The position numbers were made by a program, and so were the translations under genes. From the NCBI GenBank assembly GCA_963575745.1, contig CAUYUJ010000121.1, forward strand, positions 1 to 64,000: a stretch of 64,000 nt of DNA, written 5' to 3'. Source of the stretch: Prorocentrum cordatum. Taxonomy: Eukaryota. The notes below the pieces were generated by a model. It made no database searches. It was given only the letters and a program-made list of their open reading frames with translations, and was not told where the DNA came from. This document shows, piece by piece, positions 373 through 63,530 of this stretch (positions are counted from its first letter, which is position 1; every line of letters starts with the position of its first letter).

Positions 373-793
373 CGACACGGGCGTATCGAGGCAGCCAAGA
401 CTCGGGGTGCTTCTGGACGTGTCCTGGTTGGCAGGAGGGGGGATGTCTTCGACCCGCTGTCCAGCCAAAGCAGTGCAAACACTATTCCATCGGCAGTCCC
501 GCTGTCCTCGGCCTTCGAGGGGTCGAGGGGACCTCCTGTCGACCCCAGAGGATCGAGGAGGGAGGCTTCTCGACGTCCTCAGGGTGCTTCTGGACGTGTC
601 CCGGCAGGCAGGCGGAGGCGGCGTGGATGGAGGTTGACAGCCGAATATTCAAACCCACCAGATTGTCCGTCGGCAGAGGACGATTGGGAAGCGAGAAGAG
701 CACCCTTGTCCCCATGAGCCGCGGGATGAGCGGCGCGAGTCCTGCCCAATAGGACTGTCCAGCACCTGAGCCGAGACAGTAGCAGGATAGATG

Positions 794-952
794 TAAGTCG
801 GGCCTGTCCCCCTACAAGGGGATCGTGGGCGAAAAATGAAACATACCCCAACAATACCCCCCAAATGCCCCAAAGCAGTCAAAAACAGTCCCCGGACTGT
901 TTTTTGACTGGCTTTGAATCTTCCCCCCCGTGTACAGGGACAGGCCCGACTT
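794..952. mobile_element. Short TIR element, family A (about 155 bp); other copies 7170-7325, 24304-24462, 25373-25530, 46437-46583, 55374-55528, truncated 56079-56211
   Basis: TIR TTARGTCGGGC(C/A)TGTCCCCCTACA...TGTAGAGGGACAGGCCCGACTTAA with AT-rich core. This copy is flanked by CAGGATAGATG on both sides. Confidence 0.85.
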
Positions 953-1084
953 CAGGATAGATGGAGAGAGAGGTGGCATGAGCGGACTTCACACACGAGG
1001 GGGGAGGGAGGAGGCCCCACCGCTCCCGAGCCCAGGCGCTGGCCTCGGCCCGCCGAGGGGCCGAGAGGGGGCATGCATCCCGAC

Positions 1085-1240
1085 GACCCTCGAGGACCCT
1101 CGAGGACCCTCGAGGATCGAGGACCCTCGAGGATTGAGGATCCTCGAGGACCCTCGAGGACGGAGGCATGCATCTCGACGACCCTCGAGGACCCTCGGGG
1201 ATCGAGGAGGAAGGAGGCCGCCCCACCGAGGATCGAGGAC
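1085..1240. repeat. (CCCTCGAGGA)n 10-bp tandem repeat
   Basis: Directly visible; related TCGAGG/CTCGATC arrays at 23840-23940 and 43740-43820. Confidence 0.85.
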
Positions 1241-1659
1241 AGGCAAGCGCGCTCCACGACTCGCAGGAAGTGACTGCTCGCAGGTGGCCCGGACCCGCCG
1301 CGGGGGAGAGTCGCGGTCCACTACATCGAGGCAGGCAGGTGCTTTTGCCGCCTTTTGCCTGTCGGACGTTTGCGAGTGGGCACTTTGCGGGTTGTGGAAC
1401 GCGACCAATGAGAGGAGGATCAAGGACCGATCGGGGAGGATCGAGGAGACAGGCTTCCTCGCATGCTCTCGGGCGAAACATCGGATGCCCTCTAAGCCCC
1501 TTCGGGCCCGACGGGGGCCCAGCTGGGGGGCCTGCCGGGCGCGTGCAGGGGTCAGGACACCGGGCGGGGGCGCAGCCTGCCACTCCAGAGGTCGCCGTCG
1601 TCGTCCTCCCTTGTGGTCCGCCTCCTCGTCCTCGTCCTCGCCCTCCGTCTCCTTCCCAG

Positions 1660-1937
1660 GATGGGCCTGTTTTCCACCACCACCACCACCACCACCACAA
1701 GTTGAAGGAGGAGGAGGAGGAGGAGGAGGAGGAGGAGGAGGAGGGGGAGCAAGAGAAGGAGGAGGAGGAGGAGGACGAGGAGGAGGAGGAGGAGGACGAG
1801 GAGGAAAAAGAGGAGGAGGAGGCGGAGGAGGACGAGGAGGACCCCTCCCCCTCCAATTTATGGTGGTGGTGGTGGTGGTGGTGGTGGTGGTGGTGGTGGT
1901 GGTGGTGGTGGTGGTGGTGGTGGAAAACAAGCCCATC
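1660..1937. mobile_element. TIR element built around microsatellites; other copies 43388-43565, partial 45690-45866
   Basis: GATGGGCCTGTTTTCC(ACC)n-AAGTTG-(GAG)n-CCCCTCCCCCTCCAATTTAT(GGT)n-GGAAAACAAGCCCATC. Confidence 0.8.
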
Positions 1938-4975: not shown

Positions 4976-4977
4976 GA

Positions 4978-5189
4978 TATGTGTGTATATAGATATGTAT
5001 GTATTTATGTATGTATGCATGCATGCATGCATGGATGGATGGATGGATGGATGGATGCATGCATGGATGGATGCATGTATGTATGTATGCATGTATGTAT
5101 GTATGCATGTGTATATGTATGTATGAATGTATGTATGCATGCATGCATGCATGTATGTATGTATGTATGTGTGTATGTATGTGTGTATG

Positions 5190-5222
<33 letters not shown>

Positions 5223-5363
5223 TTGTATGTATGTATGTATGTATGTATGTATGTATGTATATATGTATGCATGTATGTATGTATGTATGCATGCATGTAT
5301 GTCTGTCTGTCTGTCTGCCTGTCTGTCTGTCTGTCTGCATGTATGTATGTATGTATGCATGCA

Positions 5364-6511: not shown

Positions 6512-7404
6512 GCGCCGCCGCGAGCGCACGCCCCCCGCCGCTCGCACGTCCTCCCGCAGGCGGATCTGGGAAGGAGACGGCAGGATCAACGGATGCTCCC
6601 AAAAAGAATCGGAGCAGGACGAAAAGTCGTCCCCGGACGATTTCTGCTCACTGCTCTTGAATGCTCTCCCCGCGGGGGGACGTGGCCGACTTCACACGAG
6701 CGGTCTGAGCCCTGCGGCGGGGGGCCTCCGACGGGGAGCGAGGCCGGCCTCCTTGCCTCAAACAACACAGACCGGCAGAGACATGTCGCCGCGCCAGTTC
6801 TTCTGAGCGCGCCCAAGTAGACGAAGTCGGCGCTGCGGTGAAACCCACGACGCACCCTGCGTCCGAGGCGGAGTTGGCCTGGGTGGCAGAGGCGCGCCCC
6901 CACGGACGCAAGACTGCGCATCGGAACAAACGGCGCGGCGACACGTAGATTCCCGGACGTGCGCGCGGATTTCTCAGATCGGCGCTAGAGCCACCTGGTG
7001 GGGCATCCGGCACCGCCCCTGACGCGCTCCGCGCGCCAGGGAGGGGGGCCCAGCGCCGATCTCAGAGATCCGCGCGGACCTCCGAACGTGAATGTTTGTG
7101 CCATTTCTTGTTACAGTATCTGCTTCTCCTGGTGATGAAAGCTGCCAGCTTCCCAACTCGTGACTAGTGTTAGGTCGGGCATGTCCTCCTACAGGCGGAT
7201 TTTCGAAGAACCCCCAAAAATATCCAAACGTACTCAAAAATCAAAAGAGCACGAAAAATCGCACCCGACGATTTTTTGTCACGATTCTTGAATACTCCTC
7301 CTGCTGAGGGACATGCCCTGCTTAAGACTCGTGGTACGGGAACTCCGCCATGCTAGAACAGGCCGGCGAGGAAGACGAGAACAGGGGGGAGAGAACGAGA
7401 AAGG

Positions 7405-10225: not shown

Positions 10226-10443
10226 GGCCTCCTCGATGGGGTCCGAGTAGACGGGGTCGGAGGATCTCGCCGCACCGCCGATACGTCGGCGATACATCGG
10301 CTATGTACTGGCGACGTCGGCGATGCATCGGCGACGTAGGTGTGCAGAAAATCGGGCCCCACATCGAGCCGCATCGTCGATGCATCGGCGATGCGGCGCG
10401 ATCCTCCGACCCCGTATACTGCGCCCCCATCTAGAAGGTCTAG
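10226..10443. mobile_element. TIR element, family G; other copies about 9855-10056, 14027-14268, partial 23740-23835
   Basis: GGCCTCCT(A/C)GATGGGGTC...CCCCATCTAGAAGG, internal CGATGCATCG repeats, perfect 10-bp flanking repeat AGAACATGGA. Confidence 0.8.
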
Positions 10444-11930: not shown

Positions 11931-14869
11931 CTGAAGACAAGAGAAGCCGCCTGCCCAACATCGGCCTGTCGGTTTAGGACAACACTTGCTGTTGGGCATT
12001 GTACATCTTTTGAGCAGGACCGACCGTCCAGGCATTCCTATAGTCCCACCACGAAATGCTCTCAGAACTCACAAATGTTCCAAGAACGAAAACAATGTTC
12101 TTAGAACATAAACCCAGTGTGATAAAACAAGACAGTCCCAACCAGAAATGTTCAAAGAACATTTCGTGGGAACCACAAAAGGCTCTTAGAACATTGTTTG
12201 GTAGGACTATAGGCGAGCCAGGACGGTTCGCCACTGCTTGAACCTTTTGTCCGTATCCACTCCGGGCGTTTGAGATCGAGGCCGCACTTGTTCTGCAGCT
12301 TCGGCCTCCGGAGGCCGGCTCTGGAGCCCCCAGGCCGTCAGAGGCAACCCTCGGGACGAAGAGCTGGCCCCCTGGAGAAAGACGAGAGGTCCGTGGGCCT
12401 CTCGGAGCCTCGCAGGATCGTCTGGTCAGATACAGCGGCTGGGAGCGGCATGCTCTTTCCGCTTAGGGCGCCGTTTTTCTCTCGTCGCGCCTTCCAATCC
12501 GCGATCGGCCCGCGGCCCACCTGCTCGTTCTCTTCCCGCGATCGGCCCGTTGCTTGTACCATGCGCTTCGAGGTGTCGCGGTGCCGCCGGCCTGACGTCC
12601 ACTTGCCAGGGCGCCGATGTTTCGAAAACCGCTTGCTCGGCTCAACAGCGAAGCAAAAGCTCGGAGAACAAAAACGCTCCCAGCGGTCTTCAAGAGAAAC
12701 TGCGCCCGAGACTATGTTGCTCCCATCGTACTGAAGGACCACATCCCAGAAATAATTTCGAGCACCCGGAAAAGTTGCGAAAGAGTGTCGAAACAGTGTC
12801 GGGCGAGTGCCTCCCAGGGCCCGACACGTGAACACCCTCGAGTTTGGGTATTTTTTCTGGTGCTCGAAATTCTTTCTGGTGATCACGGCTAAAGTCGGAT
12901 GGAACATCATAACCCGAAGACACAGAACACTCGTCGGAGGGCCCGAGGGCTTCTGAGGCGGCCCGCCGCCTTCTGAGAAGGCCTTCCCCTCCTCCCTGCC
13001 GCCCCCTCGCGCGCCGCCGATGTTCAAGAGCAACTGCAGTCGGCCCGTATCATCAGGACGCGCGATCAGGATGCAAGGGCCTCGGACGCCCATCTCGAAG
13101 CTTCTCGAGCGGGGCGCGGCCAGCAAAAGTTGCCCAGGATTGGGCACCCTTGGGAAGGTCGCCCATCCTTACTGTGCGGGTCAACTGTACGCCCGAGGCT
13201 CGGAAAGATCTTTGGAAATCCGAAACGGTGAGGCGACAGACCGTGCGGTGACCTCGAAATCCCCCAAGACCTCACCGCACGGTCCGTCAACGCACGGCTT
13301 CGGGACCTCGGATGCCCCAATCGCCCGAGACGTCCTCGGAGCACGACCCGGGTCCCGAAACCGTGCGGGGATCCCGACTCCCTACCGACTCACCACGCGG
13401 CGCGGTCACCACCCCGTTTGGGGACCCTGGCCATCGCTCGGACGTCCATTCCCTGTGCCTTTTTCGGTTTCGTGCATGGTGTTTCCGTCAAATGATCAAG
13501 GATGCTCCTCGATGGTCCTCGGCGAAGGAAAAAAATCCACACGTCCGAACGATGCCAGGGACCCCGCGAAGATCGAGAAATCGTCGTCGGCCTGGGGCGC
13601 CGGGAGGGGGGCGCGGCGGGGCCGAGGCGCGCCCCACGGGCCGGCGGGGCTCAGGCCCTGCGGCGAGCAGAGGCGGGGCCCCGGCGCAGAGGCGCGCACG
13701 CAGGCTCGAGCGCCGCGGGCCGGGCCAGGCCTCCACCGGCGGCGACCGCGGGGGGGGGGTGAGAAGTGAGCAGGGACCGACCGTGCGGGCATGCCTATGG
13801 TCCTACCACGACATGTTCTTAACACCCCAACATGTTCTAAGAACAGAAGCACTGTTCGTAGAACGCAAGCCCGATGTGGTAAAGCAAAACAAACTCAACC
13901 AGACATGTTCTAAGAACATTTCTTCGAAACCAAAAAATGTTCTTAGACTATTGTTTGGTAGGCCTGTAGGCACGCCAGGACGCTTCGCCACTGCTTGAGA
14001 GAAGGGGCGGGCCTTCTGAGATAAGGGGCCTCCTAGATGGGGTCGGAGTAGATGCGGTCGGACGATCGCGCCGCATCGCCGACACATCGACGATGCATCG
14101 GCGATGCATCGGCGATGCACTGGCGGTGCATCGTCGACGCCGACGATGCAGTGGCAACGTCGACGTGAAGCGAATCGGGCTCTACATCGAGCCGCATCGC
14201 CGATGCATCGGCGATGCGGCTCGATCCTCCGACCCCATCTACTCGGACCCTATCTAGGGTGGCCTAGATGAGAAGGCTCGGAGCTCCCCGACCTTCCGAA
14301 AAGGTTTCTAAACTTCCCCGAGGGCACAGACAACTTCTCTGTAGGCCGGAAGGCTTCTGAGAAGCCCCTCCGCCTTCTGAGAAAGCCTCCTCTGTCTCAC
14401 TTCCACCCCCTCGCTCGCCGCCGAACTTGAGCGTCGCGGGCCGAGACGAGGTTCAAGCCGTTCGAAAGAGACCGCAGGCGCGGGCGCGCTGGCCATGTGA
14501 GGAAAGGGAAGCGAGATTGCCGGGCCCGCACGGGTCAGTGGCGAGGCAAGGCACCCATGCAATGCGGGACAGGCCCCGGCCGACCAGAAGCAGGACGGCA
14601 AGGGGCCCCACCCAGAACCGGTGTGCACACACACACGCCCACACGCCTTCACGGCAGGGGGCCGCTGTCGTTGATGCCCGAACGAGGCCTCCGTGGCAAC
14701 CAATGGGAGCCTCCCATGCCATCTTGCTGGCTCTTGCTGGCTCTCGGCAATCACGTTAGTCTACGCTACATTGGCGCTAAGTCTGCGCTCTCTCGTCGAC
14801 AACCAGGCGCTAGCGCACGCTAGTGCACTCTAGAAACGCTAGAAACGTACTTGCGAGTGCATGGGAGGC

Positions 14870-22282: not shown

Positions 22283-24529
22283 GAGCCACCATACCCCCCA
22301 CTTAGGCGCGCGCGCGCGCGCCCGCCCGAGGCAAGGAGTGGGGGGGAGGAAGAGGGGAAGAGAGGGGGACGGGCTGGGAGTGGGACAGAAACGAGCAGCG
22401 GCGCAGGAAGAGCAGCGAGCAGCGACTCCCTCCCTCCCTCCCTCCCTCACTCCCTTCCTCCCTCCTCCCGCGCCCTTGGGTGAGGGAGCCGCGCCGAGGG
22501 GGGGACGCTGCGCAAAGCTCGGCCAGGCCACGAGGGCACGGCCGCCGTCGCAGCCGTCGGCTGCTGCTGCCGCCATCGCTGCCGTCGCCGCAGTGCACCC
22601 GCTTGTCACCAAGGGTATCCCAGAGAGCCACCAAAGACACGCCAGAGGCCCAGGCCTAGCGCTCACGACGAACACATCATGAAGACATCATCACACATCA
22701 TCATCGTAAGCGACGAAAAGGAAAGGATCTCAATTACGCGAGAAGACATAGCGACCTTATGCTGTGGCATTCGCGGCCGCCAGCGTGGCACACCGCGTGG
22801 AGAGGAGGACACTTACGCGCGACCCGACGCGGGCAGTCTTCGCGCAAAAAATGTCCGAGAAGACGACCCCGGCTTCTCACCGCGTCGCTCAGGCGTCGGG
22901 GGACAGCAGTGGCTGAGCTTCGGAGATCGAGGAGAGGGCCGAGTGGAGAGGCCTCGAGCTGCGCACAGACAGCACCCTCGAGGTGGTCGCCGCTGGCGCC
23001 AACAGGCCCCCCCATGGGTGGCCCGGCCGCCTCCAGCGGCGCCCCGGGGGCGCTCCACGCCCCATATAGGGTTGGGGTGCTGAGACCGCCCCGGACGTTT
23101 TCGGGGGACTTGTCGAGGCCAGCCAGGGCTTTGTGGGCCCCGGAAACGGCAGGGCCGTTTTTGTTCACCGCTTCCGAACAAAGGCCCCTTGAAAATGGAA
23201 ACGGCACACAAACGGCGACTGGAAACGGCGAACAAAAGGGGCTCCAAGGTTGGACCCGGAGCCGGAACCGGGCAAAAAACGGCGACGGAACCGGAAAAAA
23301 AAAGGCGTCGGAAGCGGCAACAAAAACGGCAAAACGGAACCGGAAAAAAAACGGCCCTGTCGTTTCCAGGACCCACTAAGCCCGGGGGGCTATCTGTGCG
23401 CAGCCCGAAGCCTCACCAGGACTGAGGGTCAGGGATCGAGGAGGCTGAAAGATCGAGTAGCGCTGGGCCGAAGACATCAGAGGATCAAGGCTTCGATGGC
23501 TCCAGGCCGCCCACATGGAGTCCGATCAGAGGGGGGCGTCGGAGGGCAGCGCCGCATCGCCGATGCCAGAGACCTGAAAAGCCACCCCCTATAAGAAGCA
23601 CCCCGTCTAGCGAAGCCGTTTAGTAAACGCACCCAAGGCAAGGAATCGAACATGGCAGGACTGTTTAGTAAACGCCCAGGGCCGTTAGTCAACGCCAAAT
23701 AAGGGGGTCGGGGTGGTTTTCCACACCTCGAAATGGATCACCGATGCATCGGCGACGTTGGCGCAGAGCAATCAAGCTTCGAATCGAGCCACATAGCCGA
23801 TGTACTGACTATGCGGCGCGATCCTCCCACCCCATCTCGAAACCTCGATCCTTCGATCCTCAATCCCTCGATCGTCGATCTCTCGATCGTGGAAGCCTCG
23901 ATCCCTCGATTCTCGATCCTCACTCCTCCTCCATCTTCGAACCTTTACCACCGCTGTCCTTGACACCTGGGTGTCGAGAAACAATTACGACGGAAGCCTC
24001 GCCCCGTTCCTTGCCACGGGGCCGTCATGGGCCGGTCCGGCGTGAGAATTGGCGCACAAAGACGGGGTCGAGGGGTCCCGACGTGGTTCCTCGCGACCTT
24101 GTCTCGCTTCTCGACGCCGCAAATCTGGACCACTTTTGCCATCGCCACTACCCGAAGTCAGAACCAACCACAAGGATGGTATAAGGAGTGCAAGGATGGA
24201 AAGCGGCCAGAACTTGCGAAGGCAGGGGTACCGGTGGGACGCAACAAGCATGCCCAGAACGGAAGAATGCAAGGGGACCTTGTTTCAAAGACTTATCCTC
24301 GAGTTAGGTCGGGCATGTCCCCCTACAGGCGGCCTTTGCACGAAAAACAAGAATATTCAATAATATACAAAGAATACCCAAACATATTCAAACAACCATC
24401 CCCTGACTACTTTTTAACCCATCTTCGAATATTCCTCCTGTAGAGGGACGTGCCCGACTTAAGCTTATCCTTGAGGCCCATTTTGACTGCATAGACACCG
24501 TCGTCCTCGGCGGCGGAGCAGGCGGCCAC

Positions 24530-24825: not shown

Positions 24826-26646
24826 GATGGAAGGCCCCGTGCCCCCCACCCTCCCTCTGCCTCTTGTGTTACGCTGGGCGCACTCGAGTGCCATGGCTGT
24901 AGCGCCCGTGTCGAGGCAGATTATGAGTGCCGACTCGGGCCTCCTTGTGCTCCTCCTCCTCCTCGTAGGCATGCCATGGGGGCGAAGCTTCACCCGCAGC
25001 GTCAGAGCGCCCGTGCACGGGCATGCCTCCTCCTGCTCCTCCTCCTCCTCGTCCTCGTCCTCGTCGTCTCCTTGTGCTTCTCGTCCTCCTCCTCCTCCTC
25101 CTCCTCTTCATCCTCCTCGTCCTCGTCCTCGTCGTCCCCTTGTGCTTCTCGTCCTCCTCCTTCTCCTCCTCCTCCTCCTCGTCCTCGTCCTCGTCGTCTC
25201 CTTGTGCTTCTCGTCTTCCTCCTCCTCCTCCTCCTCCTCCTCCTCCTCCTCCTCCTCCTCCCCCTCCTCATCCTGGAGGGTGGAGCGCTGCGCGCCGCGG
25301 CCGACCGCCCTCCTGATGTGACTTGACCTCGGCCTTCGCAGGCGTTGATCGAAGAGGGGCGGCTTTCTATTGTTAAGTCGGGCGCGTCCCCCTACAGGGA
25401 GATTTTCGACGAAAAACAGAAAAGACTCAAAAAATACCCAAGAGATGCCCAAACATGCTCAAACATAGTCCCCTGACTATTGTTTAACTATTTTTGAATA
25501 TTGCCCTGTAGAGGGACAGGCCCGACTTAATCCTGGAGCTCCTGGGAGCCTCTGTGCAGAAGAGGAAAAGACGGCATGAGCATAAACCGTTGGCGCTCTG
25601 TGCGGACTTCTTGGATCTGCGCTGGACCCGCCTCCCTGGGGCGCGGTGCGCGCCAGGGGCGGCGCCGGAGGCGGCGCCGGGGGCCCCTGGCGCGGATCCA
25701 AAAAATTCGCGCGGAGCGCCAAAAGTTTATGTTTGTGGCGTTTTCTCTTTTTGCGATCTGTGGACATACCACACCCTCCTGGCGCTCCTCATCCTTCCCT
25801 TCCTCTTCCTCCTCGAGGGTGGAATTCTGCTCGTCGCCAGGTGGGCGTCCACAAGTAGCCTCGCGACCGACGCACGACAAGTGAGCTTGCACGCCTCAGC
25901 GGGGGTCCGCTGATAAGGCTCGCTACAGCCTCGGCCAAAGCTCTCCTGCCGGCCCCCTCCTACTATACACGATGCGCCGCCATGAGCGCCGAACACGCCT
26001 GGCCAAGAACGTAGAAAAGAACGGTGACAGCACACAAAGTAAAATGCGAAAGCGATCCTTTGGGGGACGGCTGGAGCAAGACTAATGGAGGCTGGCGGGT
26101 CCTCTCCTGATCTCCCCCATAGCTCATTGCCGACGGAGAGCATGTGCAACACTTGTTCTAATATGCCAAACTCGCGCGCTCTTGTGATTATTCGCTTTCG
26201 CCACCTGCGCGCAGACACCCAGTCAAGCGTCAACTGCGTGTGGAATGAAGGGCGCCTCTGGCTCTGCTTTTAGCCACCCGCGCTCGCGCGATTATGCACG
26301 CAGCACCATCTGGGCAAGCACTGTGGGCATGACGAGCAGTCTGGGTGTGCAACCGCCACAGGGGGGGGAGAGGGGGGCGGCGCAGAGAGAGCCCGGAGGA
26401 GGAGCTTTCCAGATGGAGGGCCTCGAGGAACGGGGGACAGGGAGAACGCGCCTTCAAATCCCGCATGAGACCACGCTCGAGCCCGTCCTGGACGCCCTGT
26501 GTAAAGCTTCCCCCCCCCTCTCTGCATCCCGTCTCGTGGACGTGCCCGTGGGCTCCACCCATCCGAACTCATCCGAAGCATCCAAAGTGGCCCCTGGGAC
26601 GCTAGCACACCTGGGCGTGGCACGCGAGCGGGGAGCACGTCGTCGC

Positions 26647-28575: not shown

Positions 28576-29574
28576 CCTGGGTAGCACGCACGACTGCCGA
28601 TGACCACGGCGCGCTCCGGAGCAATTCGGGGATCTACTGACCCCGGTCAACCCCAATCTGGGTCAGTCAGGCTTTGCAGGATCCTGCAGGATCCTGCAAG
28701 ATCCTGCTCCCAAACCCGGGTCAGCGCGCTCCTGGCTCTGCAGGATCCTGCAAGATCCAGCGCTGTGACTGACCCCCGTTTGCATTCACCCCCCTCTCTT
28801 GAGCCCCGACCTTGGTAGAATGCTCGATTTACTGGTGACCACGGCGCGCTCTGGAGCGCTTCCACCCAGCAACTGCCCGGTCCTCTTGAGGGTTTCCCGA
28901 ACCGCGCCTTCGTGGCGCAGACTCCGATGGTCGAGCATGGCTCGGCGCGAGGGGCACAAAACCAAAGAAACTCCCCAGGCTAGGTTCAATTCCCCCAAAC
29001 TAGGGATCGACCTAAACCGCGCTTTTCACTTCCGTTGTGTTTTCGAGTCCCTCGTTTTGTCATCGTTTCGCCTTTACTGGAAAACACAATCAAAACGAAA
29101 ACGAATCACGAAATCGCCCAAATATCGTTTAGGTCGAGCCCTGCCCAAAACGAGGGTCTGACGAGCTGCACTTCGACCGCAGTCTCCCCCGCGCGTGCCA
29201 ACTTTGAGTTCGGGGGAGCGGGGGAATGTCCACTCATTGTTTCCCCCTACCGTCGGGTAGGACGTGTGTAGCAAAGGGTGCTGGAACCCATGTCCCATCA
29301 TGTGTTCACCATCGACCAAAACAACGGAGAGCTTGCAGCAATTACAGAACATAATTTCCGGAGAGACCAATCGATGACAAGACACATTCTCACGGAATGA
29401 AATGATCAGGTCACCAGAGCGAGTTGAACTGGCCCGTAAGGATCGAAATCTTAACTACTTTGGGTTCAACTACAACAAATGTAAACCAGCGTAGGCCCCA
29501 AATAGTGATGTCTTGCAACCAATGCGGCAGTGTAGGTAGTGCAATCCCTGTGTTGAAGTCTATGTAATACAAAG

Positions 29575-31495: not shown

Positions 31496-31645
31496 CCAAG
31501 GCTGACCCTAAACGGTGCTTTTCGCTCTCGTTTTGTTTTCGTTCTCCCTCGCTTTTGCCTCGAAGCCGCCTCCACTGCAAAACGAAGTCGAAACGAAAAC
31601 GGCCCCAAAAAATAGCCAAAAACACCGCTTGGGTCCAGCCGTGGC
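31496..31645. mobile_element. TIR element, family M; related copies 29003-29142, 54547-54692
   Basis: CCAAGGCTGACCCTAAACGGTG...CACCGCTTGGGTCCAGCCGTGG; T-rich left half mirrored by A-rich right half. Confidence 0.65.
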
Positions 31646-43707: not shown

Positions 43708-44630
43708 CTGGCAGGGGGGACGCCATCGTTGCCCCACGCGGTCGAGGAGGGAGGGGCGAGGAGGAGGATCGAGGAGGAGGGTCGAGGAGGATCGAGGAGG
43801 GTCGAGGAGGAGGGTCGAGGAGGAGGAGGAGGAGGAGGAGGAGGAGGAGGAGGAGGAAGAGGAGGAGGAGCCGCGGAGAAGGAGCCGAGGAGGTGGAGCC
43901 GAGGAGAAGGAGCCGAGGAGGAGGAGGAGCCGAGGAGGAGGAGCCGAAGAGGAGGGCCGAGGAGGGGGGTCGGTCTCGCTTCGCAGGCCTCCCCGGCCGC
44001 AAAACGCGAGCCCGAGAAAGAGAAGAGGCGGGCGGCGGAGCCCTCTGGTGCCCTGGGGCCCCGCTCGAGGGCCCCACCGATGCTCCAAGAGCTCCCCCAG
44101 TCGGCGGCACGCGATGGCGACCCCCTCCTCCTCCTCCTCCTCCTCCTCCTCCTCCTCTTCCTCCTCATCCTCCTCCTCCTCCTCCTCCGACTTTGGTGCG
44201 CGGCGCTGATTGGGCAGGGACCGGCCGTCCCCGCATTCCTGTAGGCCTACCACGGCACGTTCGTCGAACCCGAAGGAAGTTCGAAGAACAACAACAGTGT
44301 TCTTGGATCATAAGCCCTTCCCTGGGTTTCTTAATAAGCGTGGGGGGGTACCCCCCGACGGGGGTCAACCTCGCCTCGTCGTCGCGCCGCGACGATTGTC
44401 GGAGCGCCTTCGGCGCGCGCTGGCTGCCCGCGACGGGGGTCGATGTGGGGCTGTCGGCGGGGGTGACGCCCCCCCGACGCTGATTAAGAAACCCGGAATA
44501 TGTGTTAAACCAAGACAATATCAGCCAGAAATGATCTGAGAGCATGCCATGCAGACCACAACATGCTCTTAGAACATTGTTTGGTGGGCCTAGAGGCGAG
44601 CCAGGACGCTTCACCACTGCTTGAGCTGGG

Positions 44631-46100: not shown

Positions 46101-47270
46101 CTCTCTCGCCGCCGCGTGGGGGCCTCCTTGGACACCCTGGGGGCACCTTGGACCAGGGGCACGTCCAGCAACACCCGATCCAGCCCGAGCTCCCGAGGCG
46201 GATCCGGCCGCGGCGGCAAGGTCACCCAGCTGTTCTCGCTCGGCTCGGGAGCCCCATGGGGCCCTCTGGGCCTCGTGATGGGGCGCTCTGGAGGCTGTGG
46301 GGGCCTCCTCGGACATCCTGGGGGCACCCTGGGCCGGAGGCGCGTCCAGCAACACCCGATACGGCCCGAGCTCCCGAAGCGGATCCGGCCGCGGCAGCGC
46401 GCCTTCCGGAGGACCAAGAGAAGAATACGACAAGCGTTAGGTCGGGCATGTCCTCCTACAGGCGGAATCTGGACGACTAACAAAACATGCTCTAAGATAG
46501 TCACAAATAGTCGGAACATCGTCCCAATACTATTGTTTGATTATTTTGACTACTTCTCCTGTAGAGGGACGTGCCCGACTTAAAAAACAAGCGCCGGGGA
46601 GGGCCGCCGCGGCCTGGACTGGCCCCCCACATTCGATCTTCCTATATTGCCGAGAGTTTCTGCGTACAGCCGGCCCGTATCATAAGCATGTGCGATGGGG
46701 ATGCGGAAGGCAGGCCTCGCGGCGCGGCCAGAAGCACGTGCTCTCGACGCAGGAAAGCCCCGCAATGTACCTCCTCCTCCTCCTCCTCCTCCTCCTCCTC
46801 CTCCTCCTCCTCCTCCTCCTCCCTCCCCCTTTGCTCTTGGCGCTTCTGGCTGCGAGCGTCTGAATGGAGTGGGTCTGAGCCTGCGGCGACAGCGGTGTGT
46901 GTGTCGGCTCCCCCGTGGAGTGCCCACATGCTACAGTCGGCCTTTGTCGTAAGCATGCGCGATAACGATGCAATGGCCTTGGACGCCTATGTCGAAGCTT
47001 TTCGAGCGCGGCGCGGCGAACGAAAGCGGTCAAGGATGGGCCGACGAGGCAAGGATGCAAGGGTCACCTCGAGGCGGTTGCCCATCCCTGCTATGCGGGC
47101 TGACTGCACAGCCGGAAGTATGATCGAAAACAAAATCAATCAAGAGCCCAGCTTCCGGTACACCGGCCGGGCTCCCCGGGCTCCCGTGACTTGCTACCGA
47201 AGCAGACGTTCCCGACCGCACCCATCAGCGTCCCCCGCTCCCATGCTTTTCCAGCGGCCCCGAGACGGGC

Positions 47271-49866: not shown

Positions 49867-50110
49867 CTTTGTGGGCCCCGGAAACGGCAGGGCCGTTTTT
49901 CACAGTTTCCCAAAAAGTGCCTCTCGAAAATGGAAGCGGCAAAACAACGGACCAGGAACGGCAAAAAAACGGCTCCAAGATTGGAACTGGAGCTTGGACC
50001 GGTCAAAAAACGGCGACGGAGCCGGTAAAAAGACGGCGTCGGAACCGGCAAAAAAATGGCAAAGCGGAACGGGAAAATAAACGGCCCTGTCGTTTCCAGA
50101 GCCCGCTAAG
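49867..50110. mobile_element. TIR element, family D; second copy 23129-23380
   Basis: CTTTGTGGGCCCCGGAAACGGCAGGGCCGTTTTT...AAACGGCCCTGTCGTTTCCAG..CC.CTAAG; flanks GTGCGGAG / GTGTGGAG. Confidence 0.8.
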
Positions 50111-51227
50111 GTGTGGAGGCCACCAGCGAGGCCCCCTGGAGAAGCGCGGTGTACCTCGCGTGCGCTGCCGACGCGGAGGCCGGCCCAGCGCTCGCGCACG
50201 CCTGCGCTCGGCCACGCTGTGCTGCTCGCGGAGGCCCGCGCGCTTCGTGGGCACCGGCCGCGCACCGGCGGCGAGCGAGGGGGGGGGGCGAGGAGGGGCG
50301 GGACTCCTCAGGAGGCTCGGAGGCCCCCCTTGTCTGCTGACGGGAAGCTCCTCGCAAGGCGCGAGGGCTTCTGAGAAGCCCCGCCGTCTTCCGAGGAGGT
50401 CTTCCCCTTCTCGTGTCCCCCCCCTCGCTCGCCGCCGAGCGGCATGCTCCGACACGCCATGAGGAGCCCAAGGTTACGAGAAACACCCAGGAGGCTTCGC
50501 GCGGCAACTTCGTCGGCTTTACGTCGGAACCACGTGGATGTACAAAACAAAGCACGTCCGATTGAACGTCTAAACAACGCAGCGCGAATGTCGTCCCATA
50601 TCTGATGGGGCGGACGTGTGGGCTAGAGAGGACGACTATTGCGCGCCAGGCGAGGCCTCGATGATCTTCATCTGAACCTACGATTGTGTTGTTCTCATCG
50701 CACTTAAGGGCCACATCCCAGAAATAACTTCGAGCACCCAGAAAAGTATCGAAACAGTGTCGGACGCCGACACGTGAGAACCTTCAAGTTTCGACGCTGC
50801 CCTCGTGCTCGAAAGTCTTTCTGGTGATCGTGGCTGCAGTGGGTTGGAACATCCTAAACCTGCGGGCTTCTCGCGTGCTCTCCTGGCGCGCCGGCAGCAC
50901 TCTGCGTGCCCGTCGGCGGAGGTCGCCCGCGATCTTAAGCATGCGGGAAGCGGGTCCTGCGGGAAACGAGTCCTGGACCCGGGGGCTCTGCCCCCAGGAT
51001 GCCTTCTTCATGCGGAGTCGCTTGCTCCCAGTTCCTGGGCCCTCCTCGGGCCCCGCGAAGCCACAGACGGCGAAACGCCCCGGGACCGGCTTTCCTCTGA
51101 ACACGCCTTCCCCCCTGACGATCTCTCTCTCTCTCTCTCTCGCTCTCTCTCTTGCTCTCTGGCGTGGCCCGAGGTAGGCTGGATCCGAAGACGGCGGTCC
51201 GTTCTGAGGCAGCCCATCCGTCTGCTG

Positions 51228-54814: not shown

Positions 54815-57800
54815 GCTCCTCCTCCTCCTCCTCCTCCTCCTCCTCCTCCTCCTCCTCCTCCTCCTCCTCCTCCTCCTCCTCTGTGGCCGCTAGACAGAGA
54901 CTGCGTATGAAATTTCACGCCCCTTGCGCAGGGACCCTTGCCGCATGGAAGGGTGGGCATACTCACAGGCAGGCCCCCATGTCAGACGCGCAGTGTGACC
55001 CTCTCTGGTGTCATGCTGGACCTCCTCTCGGCTTCAAGCAAGAGGTGACCCTTGCCAAGAATGACCTTTGGTGCGAGGCTTCATAAGGGGGGGGGAGGCG
55101 CGGGGGCCAAACTCAAGCGCGCAAGCCGATGCTGTCGCATCGCCCCCGACGATCGGGGAGACCCCAGCGGGCTGACCACATCAGAGGTCACTCTGGAGAA
55201 GGACCACTCGTACGCGCAGCTGACGGACGCCCTCCCTCAGGCCTGGCTTTCGGGCCGGCACTTGGGCATCTGGCAGCCGTTCGGGACGATTCGGGCACCC
55301 CTCACGGTGAGGGCTCCGTGCCTTGCCCCCAAGGTCCTCTACACCGACTCGCAGACAGCGTTCTGGGGTTGACTTAGGTCGGGCCTGTCCCCCTACAGGG
55401 GGATTTTGGACAAAAGAAAAATAGTAAAAAATGCTCTACAATACTCAAAAACTGTTGAAGAATCGTCCCCAGACTATGTTTTGACTATTTTCGAATACTC
55501 CTCATGTAGAGGGACAGGCCCGACTTAAGGGTGGACCCCCGGAAAGATCTCGGCAAGGCGCGGCTGCTGGAGCGCCTCCCGAGGCAGGAACACCTCCAGG
55601 ACCTCCAGGAACCGTCAGAGTGACCCTCCGTGTGCAGTGTCGACCCTTCCCCACCGCGCCCCTTCCTCCTCCATCCCCCCTCGCCGCACTCCTGCCTCTG
55701 TTGTTCGCTTCGCTGGCCTCGCGCCAAGCGTGCACGGATCGCCATGTAAAAAATACAGTTCCTGACCCCACGAGTTGGGTGTCGGTGGCGCAGAAAAATG
55801 CGGATCTTCATAATTTCTGTAAGATTTACCGCTATGAACACGGCCAATTCGCTAATCGACGTGTCAGGCCAAACTAAGCTCCCTCCGGCCTGCTCGGTGG
55901 ATGCTCCTTGGCCTCCGACGTGCCCCCGCCCCCTCTCGGCCTCACGCCAAGGGGGGGGGGAGGGCGAGCGGGGGCGGGCCCAGAGGCGGCGATGGCCTCT
56001 GAGAGCCGGCCCTGCGAGAAGCCCCACGCGGCCCTGGAGAGGGCTCGGAGAAAGCTCCTCTATAGAGGGCAGAAAATCTGGTTCTGGACGAAAAACAAGC
56101 CATACCCAGAAAATACTCCAAGATAGTCAAAACATATTCGAAACATCGCCCCCTGCCGATGGTTTGACTATGCTTGAACATTCCTCCTGTAGAGGGACAG
56201 GCCCGACTTAACTCCAGAGGGCAGAAAATCCACCCCCATATTCATCACCCCGACAAGCGAAGCCGTTTTGGTAAACGCACCCATCGGCAGGAATCGAGCA
56301 GGGCAGGGCTTTTAGTAAACGACCAGGGCTGTTTCGCAAACGCCAATTGCCTGGTCCGAGTGGCTTTTCCTCCCTTGATTCCCGGGAGGCTGGAGTGGAG
56401 GCATCCCGAGCCTTCTCAGGAGGCCCGCGCACTCTGCCTGCCACCCTGGGCGCGCCGTCGAGCCACGTGCAGTCGACAGGGGGCAGCAGAGGAGAGAAGG
56501 AAGCAGAGGGAGGCGGAGGATGAGGGAACATCACGGGGAGAGAAGGAGCACAAGTGAGCAGGGACCGACCGTCCCGGCATTCCTATAGGCCTACCACGAC
56601 ATGTTCGAAGAAAATGTTCGAAGAACTAAAAGAAGGTTCTCGGAACATAACCCCGATGTGTTAAAACAAGGCAGTCCCAGCAAGAAATGCTCTAAGAACA
56701 TGTCGTGGAAACCACCAGAACAGGTTCTTAGAACCTTCTTCGGTGTGCCCATAGGCACGCCAGGACGCCTTGCCACTGCTTGACGTAAGGAGCAGGAGAA
56801 GAAAGGAGAAGGGGAAGAGAGAATGGAGGAGAAAGGACGAGCGAAAGAGAGAGGGGGAGGGCGCCTCCCGCGACGACGAGAACGAGAAGCCCTTCCCTTC
56901 CCCTCCCTGCCCCCTCCTCCCGCCGCGGCGGGCCCCGTTGGCGCAGGCTCTGGGCGAGCCACCAGTGGGCCAAGCAGCACCGGCGCCGCAGCCGACGTGG
57001 GCGTGACCACGCCGGGCGTGGCATCCCACTGGCGGGGGCGGGAGGGAGAAGGAGAGGGAGCAGGAGAGGAGGGAAGGGAGGAAGAAGGGAGGGGGGGAGG
57101 GAAGGAGGGAGCAGGAGGGAGGAGAAGGGAGGATAAGGAGAGGGAGCAGGAGGGAGCAGGAGGGAGGAGGGAGGGGGACGAGTGAGGAAAGAAGGGAGGG
57201 AGGGGATGGGGGACAAAGGGAGGACGAGAAAGGCATGGGAAGGCTAAGGTGAGCAAGTACCAGTCCGACCAGACACGACACATTGGGCGACTCGGCGGGT
57301 TCCGATGCTCTTTGGCTGAGAGTGAATTCGACGGCGACATCGAGAAGCTCTGGCGAACATCCATGTGTCTCTGTGCCGATTCTTCTGACCGCGCCACCAC
57401 GGCAAACGGCGATCTCTGTGTCCGAGGTGAAGTTCGCCCTGGAGTAAGGCCGCACGTCGGAGAAACGGCGCGGCGACGTATGCCCCCCCCCCCCCCCACG
57501 CTGACCGTCACGCCCCCACGAGCTTCCACAAGGGAAGCCGCGCTCGCTTCACTTGAGCGGGCCTCCCCAAACTAGACGAAGAGACAGCGGCACAAACATA
57601 AACGTTCGACGCCCCGTGCGGATTTCTTGGGTCCGCGCCAGACGTCCCTCCCTGGCGCGCTCCGCGCGCCAGGGGCGGCGCAGGAGGCGCCGCCGGGGGG
57701 GCCCAGCGAGGATCCAAGAAATCCACGCGGAGCGCCAAACAAAATATGTGTTTAGCGTTCTTCTTGTTCGACAAGTTGCTCTTTGCGCATAGTATAGTTA

Positions 57801-59385: not shown

Positions 59386-59617
59386 TGAGCAGGGACCGAC
59401 CGTCCCGGCATTCCTATAGTCATACCACGAAGTGTTCTTAGAACCCACAAATGTTCGAAAAACAAAAACGACGTTCTTAGAACATAAACCCGATGTGCTA
59501 AAACAAGACAGACTCCGCCAGAAATGTTCTAAGAACATTTCGTGGGAACCACAAAAGGTTCTTAGAACATTGTTGGGTAGGGCTATAAGCGAGCTAGGAT
59601 GCTTCGCCACTGCTTGA
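59386..59617. mobile_element. Short TIR element, family B (about 230 bp); other copies 12011-12241, 13767-13998, 44211-44623 (interrupted), 56555-56783
   Basis: TGAGCAGGGACCGACCGTCCCGGCATTCCTATAG...GGACGCTTCGCCACTGCTTGA, imperfect TIR, internal GTTCT(T/A)AGAAC palindromes, 16-bp flanking duplication. Confidence 0.85.
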
Positions 59618-60488
59618 ATGCAGTCCCTGTGCTGCCGCAGGCAACACTGGATGTGGAACGGAGGGTCCCTCCTGATCCCGGCGAGCTTCGGCCACCAACG
59701 GGCTCCTCGACCCAGACCCGAGGAACGGCCCGAAGACCACTGCCTCTCCCGAGCCCCGAGTGGTCCTCACCTCTTGGCGGCGCGCAGAGGGGGGTCAGGG
59801 GGGCGGGGGGGAGGCTTCTTAGAGGGGGTCTGCTTCTGAGAAGGCGCCAGCCTGACATCTGCAGACCAGGCCCGCGCCTTCTGAGAAGCAGGGGTGCTTC
59901 CAAGAAGCCTTCCCCCCTCCCCCATACCCCCCCTCTGCGCGCCGCCAGATTTCAGCGTCTCGGCTGCATGATCAGGACACTTCCTCCAGGAAAGCTGGGG
60001 GGGGGCACCGGCCGTCGATTGTCGAGCGCCCCGCGATGCCCCAGGGCGCTGCGGCTTTGCCCGGCAGTCGAGGGCATCGGGAAGCTCCGCGGGGCACCCC
60101 TCGCCGGCAGGCCCGTCCCCCATCTGCCGCGCCTGCTGCGTGCCGCCTCCCTGCCGAGCCCCTGCCTCGACGCTGGGCCTCAATCGTTGCCCGCCGCTGC
60201 CCCTCCGCGTGGACGCCTGGCGCCGCTTGAGGCCCCGGCCCCTCGACGACCGGCCCCGCTCCTCCTGGCCCCCTGCCTCGACGCCCGGCCCTCCTCCTCC
60301 TCCTCCTCCTCCTCCTCCTCCTCCTCCTCCTCCTCCTCCTCCTCCTCCCTGGGCCTCTCCTGCCTCGACGCTGGGCCTCACCTGCAGCCCGCCGCTGCCT
60401 CCCCGTGCGGACGGCGCTGCCGCCGACCGCAGCGGGCATCGCCGAGGCCGTGCCCACGGCTGGCGGGGGCGAGGGCCGCGCGCGGGGC

Positions 60489-60644: not shown

Positions 60645-60719
<75 letters not shown>

Positions 60720-60848
60720 TGGGGGCCACTTGGACATTGGAAACCGACGTTGAGGAATGTACGTGTGCGTCCTTCTCTCGCTCTTGAAGCTCCCCTCCAC
60801 GCAAGCTCCGCCCCCGCACCGCCTCCTTATAAAAGCAGGTTGCCGCGC

Positions 60849-60971
60849 CTCACGCTCGGCGTAGTCCCTCGCCTCCTGGAGCGCCAGCAGCGTCATCTCC
60901 TGCTGCAGCGAGATTGCGCACCCGGCGCTCACCAGGTGCCGCTTGCGTGCGTACTCCAGCAGCTGCACGCC
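60849..60971 (-). CDS. Internal exon 1 (in window) of a large multi-exon gene: GVQLLEYARKRHLVSAGCAISLQQEMTLLALQEARDYAERE
   Basis: Acceptor ctctacctcag|G, donor GAG|GC, 123 nt, phase 0-0. GC3-rich non-repetitive island in frame with the next exon. Confidence 0.85.
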
Positions 60972-61308
60972 CTGAGGTAGAGCCGAGAAGGGGGCGATAT
61001 CAGGGAGAGCGGGGGGAGTCCGAAAGGAGGTGGTGGGAGCAGCTGTTTTTGTCTGAAGTCTCCTGCCCCGGACCCCCGTCGCCATGATTTTTTCATAACA
61101 TCGACCCTCAGGGGTCTCGACCCATTCCCCTGGACCGGTTTTTTCATCCTGGATCGCTTTGACGCCCCCGAGGCCCGGCGAGGGCCCCCGGAGGCCGGAA
61201 AGGGCGAAAAACCTCCCGTGATGTGGATTTCCCATTGCAGGAAGGGCCTGGGAGGTCAATCGACCAAGCGGGTGGAAGCCGCGCGACCACAGGACCCCCC
61301 CCTCGCAA

Positions 61309-61518
61309 TATGTTGTTCCCATCCTACTTAAGGACCACATTCCAGAAATAATTTCGAGCACCCAGAAAAGTGTCAAAAGAGTGTCGAAACAAGGTCGAAA
61401 CAGTGTTGAGCGAGTGTCTCCTAGGGCCCAACACGTAAAAACCCTGGAGTTTCGGTACTTTTTTGGGCACTCGAAATTCTTCCTGGTGGTCAAGGCTAAA
61501 GTAGGTTGGAGCATGATA
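61309..61518. mobile_element. TIR element, family E; other copies 12713-12911, 50685-50856
   Basis: TATGTTGTTCCCATCCTACTTAAGG...CTAAAGTAGGTTGGAGCATGATA, shared core CCAGAAATAATTTCGAGCACCC, CCTCGCA repeated in both flanks. Confidence 0.8.
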
Positions 61519-63530
61519 AGCCTCGCACAGAGGGCGACTACAATGGCAGCGCACGGCACAGCCAGGGTGGCGCGGTGAGAGGCGCGCCGCCGGGGGATTG
61601 GAGCGGCGGCATTTTGGCCGTTTTCGGCCTCCGGGGGCCCTCGCCGGGCTTCGGGAGAGGCAAAAAACGACTCAGGACGAAAAACGGGTTCCGGGGAAAT
61701 GATCCAGACCTCCAGGGCCCACGCATCGAACAAATTGGAGCAGCCGGATGTCTGGGAAGGGGTACCGAAGGAGGAAAGGTGAGGCTACGGCTTGGAGCTT
61801 TGAGGACGTGGAGGCGTTACGAGGCAACTCCTGGGAGATCTTCATCATGACGACTCAAGGCTATTAGGCCAAAGAGGGGCCACTGAGCCGAATCAGGCCA
61901 TATCGCACCTGGGACTAGGCCGAATCCAGCAAGATTTAGCCAGATTCAGCAGAACTGAGCCGGATTCAGCGGGACTGAGTCAGATTCGGCTGGTTCTCGC
62001 CCAGGGATATACCAGCGTCGACTCTGAGTCTCACCTCCCTGGAATTGCATCCTGAGAAACGGGCTGGAACAATGAGTGAGAGGGGAGACTTGTCTTTCAA
62101 TGGTGAGATTCACCCGACAGCAGCGCAGGTTAACAATCGGCGCGGATCCACTCAACAGTGGTCAGTGAGCTGCACGCGGAGGCCTGGAGCACAGAGTGGG
62201 GCGATACGAATCACCCCTAAGCTACTGTGGAAGGGAGGAAGGAGAGGAGAGAGAGAGAGAGGGCGATAACGAGGACAAGGACGAGAGGAAATGGGGATTT
62301 TGTCTGTCCAGAGCGCGTCCGCGCACGGCCATTCCCGGACCCTCACCACAGCCACCCCTCGTTCTGAAGCTGCGCGCCGTGGGTAAGGAAGGTCGAGGCA
62401 GCACGAGTGCTGAGCGGCAGCACCAGGGTGAATGATCGCGGGCAGGATGGAAGGCGGTGGACAGGAGTAGGTGGTGACATCCGAACCCTACCTCTCCAAG
62501 CCATCGATTCTCCTTAATCGATAGAAGGCGGGGGTGCTCAGGGTTTGAACTTCGCCACGTGTTCGACGAATTCCGAGCCCTACCCCCGCCGTCCATCGAG
62601 ATACCTGAGTCGTTGATCAGCGAGGGCGGGGGTCGCATTCCGCCGCCGAACAGCCACCCCATCGTTCTGGAGCTGTGCGCCGTGGATGATAGGTGGAGCC
62701 GTGCGCCTCTGATAAAGGTCGAGGGAGCACGAGCGCTGAGCGGCAGCACCAGGGCGCCTGAGCGCGGGCAGGGTGGAAGACGGTGGACAGGAGGAGACCT
62801 CTCTTTTTCCATTTTTCGCCGACGACCTGGGATATCGGGTAGGGGGTGGTGGGGGAGGAGGTGACGGCCGATGATAACCCAACCTTGTCGCTTTGGGCAG
62901 CCTCCCGCATGCCCGCGCGCACCAATGCTGCGTACCACTCCAGGTCTGCGCAACCAACAGGGTCGGGGACGAAATCGGCCTCGCTTCCCCCGCTACGAGG
63001 CACGGCACCAGAGCCCTAAGAGGGACGAACATGCCAGATTGAGAAAGTGACCCGCATCGACCAGCTCACGAATCAACGAGCACCGCCTGCAAGAATGCTG
63101 TCGACCGAAACAGCAAGCCTCTGTCGTAAACACCCGGTTAGGTGAGCGTGCAGGAGAGAGGTGAGGACCATCGGAAAACTGCGTACCCGATGGAGCATGG
63201 CACGACAAGTTATAACCAGAGAATTGTTCACAGACCACATCGGCGCACAGCTTTTATGGTGCTGAGTGCTGCCGGTGTCCTGGATACTGCGCATCATCAT
63301 CATCATCATCATCATCACCATCATCATCAGCATCATCATCATCAGCAGCAGCATCATGATCATCGTCATCATCATCATCAGCAGCAGCAGCATCAGCATC
63401 AGCATCATAATCAGCATCAGCATCAGCATCAGCATCACCAGTATCATCAGCATCACCATCATCATCAGCATCATCAGCATCATCAGCATCAGCATCGCCA
63501 TCACCATCACCATCGTGATCATCACCATCG

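What the first reader, a model, noticed from the sequence alone, without database searches (positions are those of the whole stretch)
783..61527. Many unrelated short palindromic elements carry flanking direct repeats of variable length
Seen in family A: 11 bp CAGGATAGATG (783-793/953-963), 8 bp GACT(A/C)GTG (7162-7169/7326-7333), 12 bp CTTATCCT(C/T)GAG (24292-24303/24464-24475), 7 bp ACAAGCG (46430-46436/46587-46593), 8 bp GGGT(T/G)GAC (55366-55373/55529-55536); none at 25373. Family B: 6 bp GAGAAG (13761/13999) and 16 bp ATGCAGTC(G/C)CTGTGCT (59370/59618). Family G: 10 bp AGAACATGGA. Families D and E: about 7-9 bp. Established: most DDE transposases give a fixed TSD length per superfamily, while variable TSDs typify target-primed reverse transcription or break repair. 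Inference: these TIR/hairpin elements may be inserted by a non-classical route, such as LINE-mediated retroposition of hairpin RNAs or capture at staggered breaks. This may be an undescribed class.
Basis: partly seen in the sequence, partly recalled or inferred. Interest (0 to 1): 0.8.

Follow-up and report, generated by a model that had tools for sequence, protein, structure and literature searches.

The report
Hairpin transposons with variable target duplications
A dinoflagellate DNA stretch is crowded with small hairpin-shaped jumping elements whose flanking duplications really do vary from 5 to about 16 bases within single families, which fits no fixed-cut transposase but does not yet prove a new insertion route.

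Summary
With element ends fixed by coordinates, 16 of 39 elements carry a flanking DR, against 0.45 expected from 1,482 swapped flank pairs.

Lengths cluster at 7-9 nt (10 of 16). The tails are real:
- 5 and 6 nt, both confirmed against a paralogous uninterrupted copy.
- 10, 11, 12 and 16 nt.
- A 15-nt perfect DR around a copy that lacks its left end.

Families A, B and D are therefore not fixed.

The elements are MITE-like: 140-250 nt, inverted ends, hairpin folds. In families A, B and O the termini are more conserved than the interior. That points to sequence-specific end recognition, as with a transposase. There are no A-tails and no ribozymes.

My best reading is non-autonomous DNA transposons, the "introner elements" of dinoflagellate papers, with a preferred cut of about 8 bp and unusually loose spacing. 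A repair- or reverse-transcriptase-mediated route for the long-duplication copies is not excluded.

Separately, 37 of 40 family copies lie on the same strand.

No genome, RNA or empty-site data could be used.

The parts
794..952 (.). Family A copy 1, ends one and two bases shorter than in the other copies. Flanking DR 783-793 / 953-963, 11 of 11.
7170..7325 (.). Family A copy 2. DR 7162-7169 / 7326-7333, 7 of 8.
24304..24462 (.). Family A copy 3. DR 24292-24303 / 24464-24475, 11 of 12, with one extra base at 24463.
25373..25530 (.). Family A copy 4, no flanking DR.
46437..46583 (.). Family A copy 5. DR 46430-46436 / 46587-46593, 7 of 7, with three extra A at 46584-46586.
55374..55528 (.). Family A copy 6. 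DR 55366-55373 / 55529-55536, 7 of 8.
56079..56211 (.). Family A copy 7, which lacks the left inverted end. Perfect 15-nt DR 56064-56078 / 56216-56230. The right copy of the DR is the start of repeat family R, whose other member (23566-23698) carries that stretch once.
12011..12241 (.). Family B copy 1, no clear DR.
13767..13998 (.). Family B copy 2, inserted in the left arm of host element F2. DR 13761-13766 / 13999-14004, 6 of 6, confirmed by collinear alignment of the host with paralogue F5.
44211..44624 (.). Family B copy 3, split by a nested 181-nt inverted-repeat element (44318-44498) that shows no visible duplication. No clear DR of its own.
56555..56783 (.). Family B copy 4. Only an offset 8-mer in purine-rich flanks, not accepted as a DR.
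59386..59617 (.). Family B copy 5. DR 59370-59385 / 59618-59633, 15 of 16, with clean junctions.
10226..10441 (.). Family D copy 2, a near-perfect palindrome. DR 10216-10225 / 10444-10453, 10 of 10, with two extra bases at the right junction.
14022..14268 (.). Family D copy 3, inserted in host element F2. DR 14017-14021 / 14269-14273, 5 of 5, confirmed by paralogue alignment.
13737..14424 (.). Host element F2, which carries B2 and D3. With one copy of each DR removed it aligns without gaps to F5 (50266-50438).
12713..12913 (.). Family G copy 1, inserted in an F-family element. DR of 8-9 nt with one indel (12705-12712 / 12914-12922).
50683..50856 (.). Family G copy 2. DR 50675-50682 / 50857-50864, 7 of 8.
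61308..61520 (.). Family G copy 3. DR 61301-61307 / 61521-61527, 7 of 7.
29001..29143 (.). Family I copy 1. DR 28993-29000 / 29144-29151, 7 of 8.
31498..31643 (.). Family I copy 2. DR 31489-31497 / 31644-31652, 9 of 9.
197..400 (.). Family K copy 1. DR 190-196 / 401-407, 7 of 7.
23129..23379 (.). Family O copy 1. DR 23122-23128 / 23380-23386, 6 of 7.
49867..50109 (.). Family O copy 2. DR 49858-49866 / 50110-50118, 8 of 9.
25544..25776 (.). Family C copy 3. A 12-of-13 DR (25531-25543 / 25777-25789) lies 13 and 19 nt outside the conserved core, in CT-rich sequence. Doubtful.

Best explanation
The elements are non-autonomous DNA transposons of the miniature inverted-repeat / foldback kind. These are the hairpin 'introner elements' already noted in dinoflagellate introns.

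An enzyme supplied in trans recognises the conserved inverted termini and joins the element into a staggered cut, and repair of the stagger makes the flanking duplication. The preferred stagger is about 8 bp (7-9). The spacing of the two strand attacks is loose, or the two ends sometimes join independently, which gives duplications from 5 to about 16 bp in the same family.

Shown: the elements, their hairpin folds, the duplications and their spread of lengths, and the extra conservation of the termini. Inferred: that the enzyme is a DDE-type transposase, that loose coupling causes the spread, and that the shared orientation comes from selection inside a one-directional transcription unit.
For: - Elements are 140-250 nt with inverted ends, many families, and flanks that differ between copies.
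- All 37 elements tested fold with the first 15 nt paired to the last 25 nt at 7 to 15 positions; z against 30 shuffles ranges from -1.3 to -20.9.
- 16 of 39 elements have a DR abutting the ends, against 0.45 expected. Ten of the 16 are 7-9 nt.
- Termini are more conserved than the interior: A 0.89/0.82 against 0.56; B 0.91/0.90 against 0.77; O 1.00/0.88 against 0.79.
- All five B copies share the same terminal bases at the right end and four of five at the left; B3 differs at one base.
- There is no A-rich or simple-repeat tail at either end.
- Mutator/Foldback Tm1 elements vary 8-10 bp within a family: 45 of 53 (PMC3169594, passages).
- P. cordatum introns are reported as enriched in such elements (PMC10666404, passages).
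- The lack of a DR in 23 of 39 elements fits decay: copies are 64-88% identical pairwise.
Against: - Duplications of 5 and 6 nt (paralogue-verified) and of 11, 12, 16 and 15 nt lie outside any range I know for one eukaryotic DDE superfamily (ranges recalled, not from a call).
- A1 has shortened ends. A3, A5 and D2 have extra junction bases. Direct strand transfer by a transposase does not produce either.
- A7 lacks one inverted end.
- The terminal bases of the families are unrelated to each other, so many different enzymes would be needed.
- No autonomous partner could be sought, because no genome is held.
- Termini are not more conserved than the interior in G, I, E and D.
- Cut-and-paste insertion does not predict 37 of 40 copies on one strand.
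Confidence: 0.5

Rival explanations
1. There are two routes. Most copies were pasted by a transposase with an 8-bp stagger. A minority (A1, A3, A7, B5, D2) entered by a non-classical route. That route is either capture of excised element DNA or of a cDNA copy at a staggered chromosome break, or target-primed reverse transcription by a LINE enzyme. Both naturally give long, variable duplications, filler bases, nibbled ends and truncated copies.
For: - Long DRs are statistically secure: score >=8 in 5 of 39 elements against 0.03 expected.
- Four of the five long-DR copies have junction irregularities. A1 has shortened ends, A3 has one extra base, D2 has two, and A7 is truncated with a 4-nt overlap at the left junction.
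- Earlier notes of this scan report abundant LINEs and retroposed messages in this genome (unchecked).
Against: - There is no 3' tail.
- B5 has the longest DR (16 nt) and clean junctions.
- A7's missing end could be a later deletion across the 4-nt overlap.
- The 'clean' junctions of the 7-9 class were partly set with the DR in view, so the contrast is biased.
- Only five copies are involved.
Confidence: 0.25
2. A single mechanism, not yet described, moves any hairpin-forming element. It is guided by structure rather than by a family-specific transposase, it cuts the target with a free stagger, and it is coupled to the direction of transcription or replication. This would explain why almost all copies point the same way.
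For: - At least 17 families with unrelated terminal bases all form hairpins.
- Duplication length varies within families.
- 37 of 40 copies are co-oriented over 64 kb.
Against: - Termini are conserved in sequence, not only in pairing, in A, B and O.
- The mode at 7-9 nt suggests a fixed geometry.
- Co-orientation can come from selection in a transcribed region.
- There is no direct evidence of any intermediate.
Confidence: 0.1
3. Every family has one fixed duplication (8 bp). The deviating repeats are chance matches, decay or secondary duplications.
For: - Ten of 16 DRs are 7-9 nt.
- Four of the ten long repeats in the boundary-free scan did turn out to be tandem duplications or host-internal repeats.
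Against: - 11 of 11, 11 of 12, 10 of 10, 15 of 16 and 15 of 15 matches abut the ends, with 0.03 expected at score >=8.
- The 6- and 5-nt duplications are exact against a paralogous uninterrupted copy.
Confidence: 0.05

Closest known systems
Dinoflagellate 'introner elements' / introner-like elements (Polarella, Symbiodiniaceae, Amoebophrya, P. cordatum)
   Same: Short elements with inverted ends and flanking direct repeats, in many families and at high density in genic DNA of dinoflagellates (bioRxiv 10.1101/2020.10.14.339549, parts 1-2 of 4 read; PMC7789003 and PMC10666404, passages).
   Different: - In Polarella each class has one duplication length (3, 4, 5 or 8 nt) and the element supplies splice sites. 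Here lengths vary within families.
- The ends of A and B carry no AG, and most duplications do not start with G plus A, C or T.
- The P. cordatum paper searched only for direct repeats of 3-5 nt.
Mutator/Foldback elements such as Tm1 of root-knot nematodes
   Same: Foldback and MITE-like forms with long inverted arms. The duplication is not strictly fixed: 8-10 bp, most often 9, in 45 of 53 elements (PMC3169594, passages).
   Different: The range here is 5 to 16 (or more) with a mode near 8. No transposase or terminal-motif link was tested.
hAT-type MITEs
   Same: A preferred duplication of about 8 bp.
   Different: The hAT duplication is fixed at 8 bp and the ends usually follow a short terminal motif (both recalled). 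Only family I begins in a way that resembles it.
SINEs and processed copies inserted by LINE enzymes (target-primed reverse transcription)
   Same: Duplications of variable length, roughly 5-20 bp, with truncated copies and filler bases (recalled knowledge).
   Different: There is no 3' tail. Both ends are conserved and inverted. Only one truncated copy has a duplication.
New introns flanked by short direct repeats attributed to repair of staggered breaks (Daphnia; recalled, not read here)
   Same: Direct repeats of variable length around inserted DNA.
   Different: Those insertions are unique sequences. These are multi-copy families with defined termini.

Membership tests
MITE / non-autonomous TIR DNA transposon | Short, non-coding, with terminal inverted repeats | tested here: met
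   Elements of 140-250 nt with ends paired in the folds of all 37 tested. No Pfam hit in 113 long reading frames of the window.
MITE / non-autonomous TIR DNA transposon | Many copies with unrelated flanks | tested here: met
   Self-comparison gives families of 2-7 copies whose similarity stops at the element ends.
MITE / non-autonomous TIR DNA transposon | Target duplication of one length per family | tested here: not met
   A: 7, 8, 8, 11, 12, 15. B: 6, 16. D: 5, 10. G, I and O stay within 7-9.
MITE / non-autonomous TIR DNA transposon | Autonomous partner with the same termini | not testable with these tools
   No genome is held. The metagenome scan gave only chance hits.
hAT superfamily | 8-bp duplication | tested here: inconclusive
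   The mode is 7-9 nt (10 of 16), but there are secure outliers.
Mutator/Foldback | Duplication of 8-10 (to 11) bp and long inverted arms | tested here: inconclusive
   13 of the 18 measured duplications (the 16 plus G1 and A7) fall in 7-11 nt. The values 5, 6, 12, 15 and 16 do not. Families C, D, P and Q are near-complete palindromes.
Introner (intron-creating transposon) | Element end and duplication supply the splice sites, so the element is spliced exactly | tested here: not met
By sequence only: A and B end in neither strand with AG, and most duplications do not begin with G plus A, C or T. No RNA evidence could be obtained.
SINE / LINE-dependent retroposon | Variable duplication | tested here: met
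SINE / LINE-dependent retroposon | 3' A-rich or simple-repeat tail, or a 3' end shared with a LINE | tested here: not met
   No tails at the ends of A or B, except three A in one copy. A LINE partner could not be sought.
Retrozyme / ribozyme-bearing small circular RNA element | Hammerhead or other self-cleaving motif | tested here: not met
   The Rfam scan of the whole window at E<=1 gave only sub-threshold microRNA-hairpin and snoRNA-like hits.

The most novel reading that the evidence does not exclude
Dinoflagellate hairpin elements are inserted by a route with a freely variable stagger. That route may be end-recognising nicking followed by repair, or reverse transcription of hairpin RNA, and it is tied to the direction of transcription or replication. 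It would make a transposon class distinct from classical MITEs and would explain both the 5-16 nt duplications within families and the near-total co-orientation of 17 families over 64 kb.
Probability: 0.2. Interest if true: 0.8.

Novelty: new variant of a known kind. Interest (0 to 1): 0.5.

Why it matters
Dinoflagellate genomes are huge and packed with these small hairpin elements, yet how they move is unknown. The published screens looked only for 3-5 nt repeats.

A real within-family spread of duplication length would mean the integrating enzyme measures its target loosely, or that a second, repair- or RNA-based route operates. The strong common orientation adds to this. Either case bears on how introns and genome size grow in this group.

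The question becomes directly testable on the full assembly: plot the duplication spectrum of young copies, and look for empty sites in other strains.

Tried and rejected
- More copies. A metagenome scan with an 18-base pattern from the family A end gave 95 loci. None showed similarity beyond the pattern (best 25-33 nt), so all are chance hits.
- Retrozyme idea. No ribozyme was found.
- Tandem gene array as the cause of shared orientation. The roughly 9.36-kb spacing of GGA microsatellites has no matching translated similarity.
- Long repeats dropped as target duplications:
  - 12689/13023 lies inside a diverged F element and recurs beyond E1.
  - 16578/17095 is part of a 517-nt tandem duplication.
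  - 1228/1415 and 58941/59171 lie in tandem contexts.
  - 25531/25777 is doubtful.
- F4 (45945-46140) as a truncated copy with a DR: ambiguous.
- Strand-specific RNA folding. The minus strand is more stable in 25 of 44 elements, the plus strand in 19 (Wilcoxon p 0.075). The result is confounded by A/C-rich loops.
- Pfam on 113 reading frames of 150 aa or more (out of 186; 73 low-complexity frames were dropped before the scan) gave only low-complexity hits below cut-off.
- The 549-aa frame at 35176-36822 has no relatives of similar length.
- Earlier-findings look-ups by sequence and by words gave nothing relevant.
Full report
**Context**

The window is 59-67% G+C in 4-kb bins and full of microsatellites. 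No whole genome is held for it.

Earlier notes of this scan on other pieces of the same genome call it a dinoflagellate of the genus Prorocentrum (unchecked). The G+C content agrees with the 59.7% reported for P. cordatum (PMC10666404, passages).

A comparison of the window with itself found 85 repeated segments, most of them 140-250 nt, in more than 17 families of 2-7 copies. Their similarity ends at the element borders.

I folded 37 elements as single strands. In all of them the first 15 bases pair with the last 25 at 7 to 15 positions. Energies lie 1.3 to 20.9 standard deviations below 30 shuffles. They are hairpin-forming elements with inverted ends, at about one per kilobase.

**The observation**

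I ran three controls.

1. Ends defined blindly as the outermost ungapped inverted repeat (53 pairs) gave 7 repeats of score >=4 against 1.37 expected. Of the five of score >=5, four are family A and one is 29002-29142. Many true ends lie outside ungapped arms, so this undercounts.
2. A boundary-free scan of 76 segments looked for the best repeat between the two end regions. It gave 10 of score >=10 against 1.27 expected from 600 swapped pairs.
   - On inspection I accept five: A1, A3, A7, B5 and D2.
   - One is doubtful: 25531/25777.
   - Four are something else: a host-internal repeat, a 517-nt tandem duplication and two tandem contexts.
3. With ends fixed by coordinates from the family alignments, 16 of 39 elements have a repeat abutting the ends, against 0.45 expected from 1,482 swapped pairs. 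Five score >=8 against 0.03 expected.

The ends of G, I, K, O and D3 were adjusted by up to 6 bases with the repeat in view, which inflates this count. The ends of A, B, E, F, L and P were not adjusted.

**Lengths**

| Length (nt) | Copies |
|---|---|
| 5 | D3 |
| 6 | B2 |
| 7 | A5, G3, K1, O1 |
| 8 | A2, A6, G2, I1 |
| 8-9, with an indel | G1 |
| 9 | I2, O2 |
| 10 | D2 |
| 11 | A1 |
| 12 | A3 |
| 15 | A7 |
| 16 | B5 |

The two shortest are not decay products. B2 and D3 both sit inside one host element, F2. When one copy of each repeat is removed, F2 aligns without gaps to its paralogue F5. When both copies are kept, gaps of 6 and 5 open exactly at the repeats (scores 114 against 104.5).

A7 lacks its left inverted end. 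The DNA upstream is no more like the family's left arm than shuffled sequence for three of four reference copies (fractions 0.40-0.78; 0.046 for the fourth, which rests on a 7-base stretch). Its 15-nt perfect repeat lies at 56064-56078 and 56216-56230. The right copy is the start of another repeat family, whose second member has that stretch only once.

So families A, B and D do not have one duplication length. Families G, I and O stay within 7-9 nt.

**What speaks for a transposase-type mechanism**

- The mode is 7-9 nt.
- In A, B and O the 25 terminal columns are clearly more conserved among copies than the interior: 0.89/0.82 against 0.56; 0.91/0.90 against 0.77; 1.00/0.88 against 0.79. This is what sequence-specific end recognition during amplification produces. 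It is not seen in G, I, E or D.
- All five B copies end on the same bases at the right, and four of five begin on the same bases at the left.
- There are no A-rich or simple-repeat tails and no ribozymes.
- The 23 elements without a repeat fit decay, since copies are 64-79% (A) and 77-88% (B) identical pairwise.
- Foldback/Mutator elements are documented to vary by 8-10 bp within a family (PMC3169594).

**What speaks against a classical one**

- Duplications of 5, 6, 12, 15 and 16 nt in families that also show 8.
- Shortened ends in A1, which has a perfect 11-nt repeat, and extra bases at the junctions of A3, A5 and D2.
- The one-ended A7, although a later deletion across its 4-base junction overlap could explain that.
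- Terminal bases that are unrelated between families.

I therefore put 0.5 on end-recognising DNA transposons with a preferred stagger of about 8 bp and loose spacing. I put 0.25 on a second route, repair-mediated or LINE-mediated, for the long-duplication copies. I put 0.1 on one new structure-guided mechanism and 0.05 on 'fixed 8 bp plus noise'.

**Relation to introners**

Polarella introner classes each have one duplication length and supply splice sites (bioRxiv 10.1101/2020.10.14.339549, parts 1-2 read). Here the ends of A and B carry no AG on either strand, and most duplications do not begin as a 5' splice site would.

Strong codon periodicity is confined to 35.4-39.2 kb on the plus strand. 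Most elements therefore lie in non-coding DNA.

I could not test splicing.

**A further property**

Within families, 37 of 40 non-reference copies lie on the same strand as the first copy. The exceptions are the C copy at 6953, the arm at 61113, and the pair 8719/48555. Pairwise, 80 comparisons are same-strand, 8 opposite and 4 ambiguous.

This is not due to a tandem gene array. Cut-and-paste insertion does not predict it. Selection within a one-directional transcription unit, or coupling of insertion to transcription or replication, could produce it.

**Literature limits**

I searched for dinoflagellate introners and target duplications, for Prorocentrum introners, for dinoflagellate MITEs, and for variable-length duplications with inverted repeats. 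None of the listings, and none of the passages I read in five of the papers, showed a report of within-family variation of this width in dinoflagellates. Supplements were not opened.

Noticed in passing
whole window, e.g. families at 794-56211 (A), 12011-59617 (B), 13034-53089 (E): Near-total co-orientation: 37 of 40 non-reference copies of repeat families lie on the same strand over 64 kb. The plus strand is C>G in 14 of the 16 4-kb bins and A>T in 11 of 16.
   Followed up: partly
35176-39865: About 4 kb free of elements, with strong three-base periodicity on the plus strand and changes of frame. It is probably a coding region of an unknown gene. A 549-aa frame has no Pfam hit and no relatives of similar length.
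   Followed up: partly
12011-14424: A nest of elements: B1, then G1 inside an F element, then E1, then B2 and D3 both inside F2. Insertions cluster in and beside older elements.
   Followed up: partly
44318-44498: A 181-nt inverted-repeat element nested in family B copy 3. Judged against three intact B copies, it shows no target duplication.
   Followed up: partly
8719-9414 and 48555-49503: A pair of 700-950-nt repeats in opposite orientation (bit score 462), the largest repeat in the window. Not characterised.
   Followed up: no
16581-17072, 18124-18803, 33515-34542: Arrays of an 11-nt unit rich in C and A, shared by three loci. The first lies within a 517-nt tandem duplication.
   Followed up: partly
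42906-43164; 40597-40826; 4918-5700: Tandem arrays of an 8-nt unit, of a 32-nt unit, and of 4-nt ATGC/ATGT-type units. The last gives sub-threshold microRNA-family hits in Rfam.
   Followed up: no
families A, B, I, K (e.g. 794-952, 12011-12241): The central parts are A/C-rich on the plus strand, so the minus-strand RNA fold is 10-28 kcal/mol more stable with more G-U pairs in 10 of the 14 copies. Families E, F and L mostly show the opposite.
   Followed up: partly
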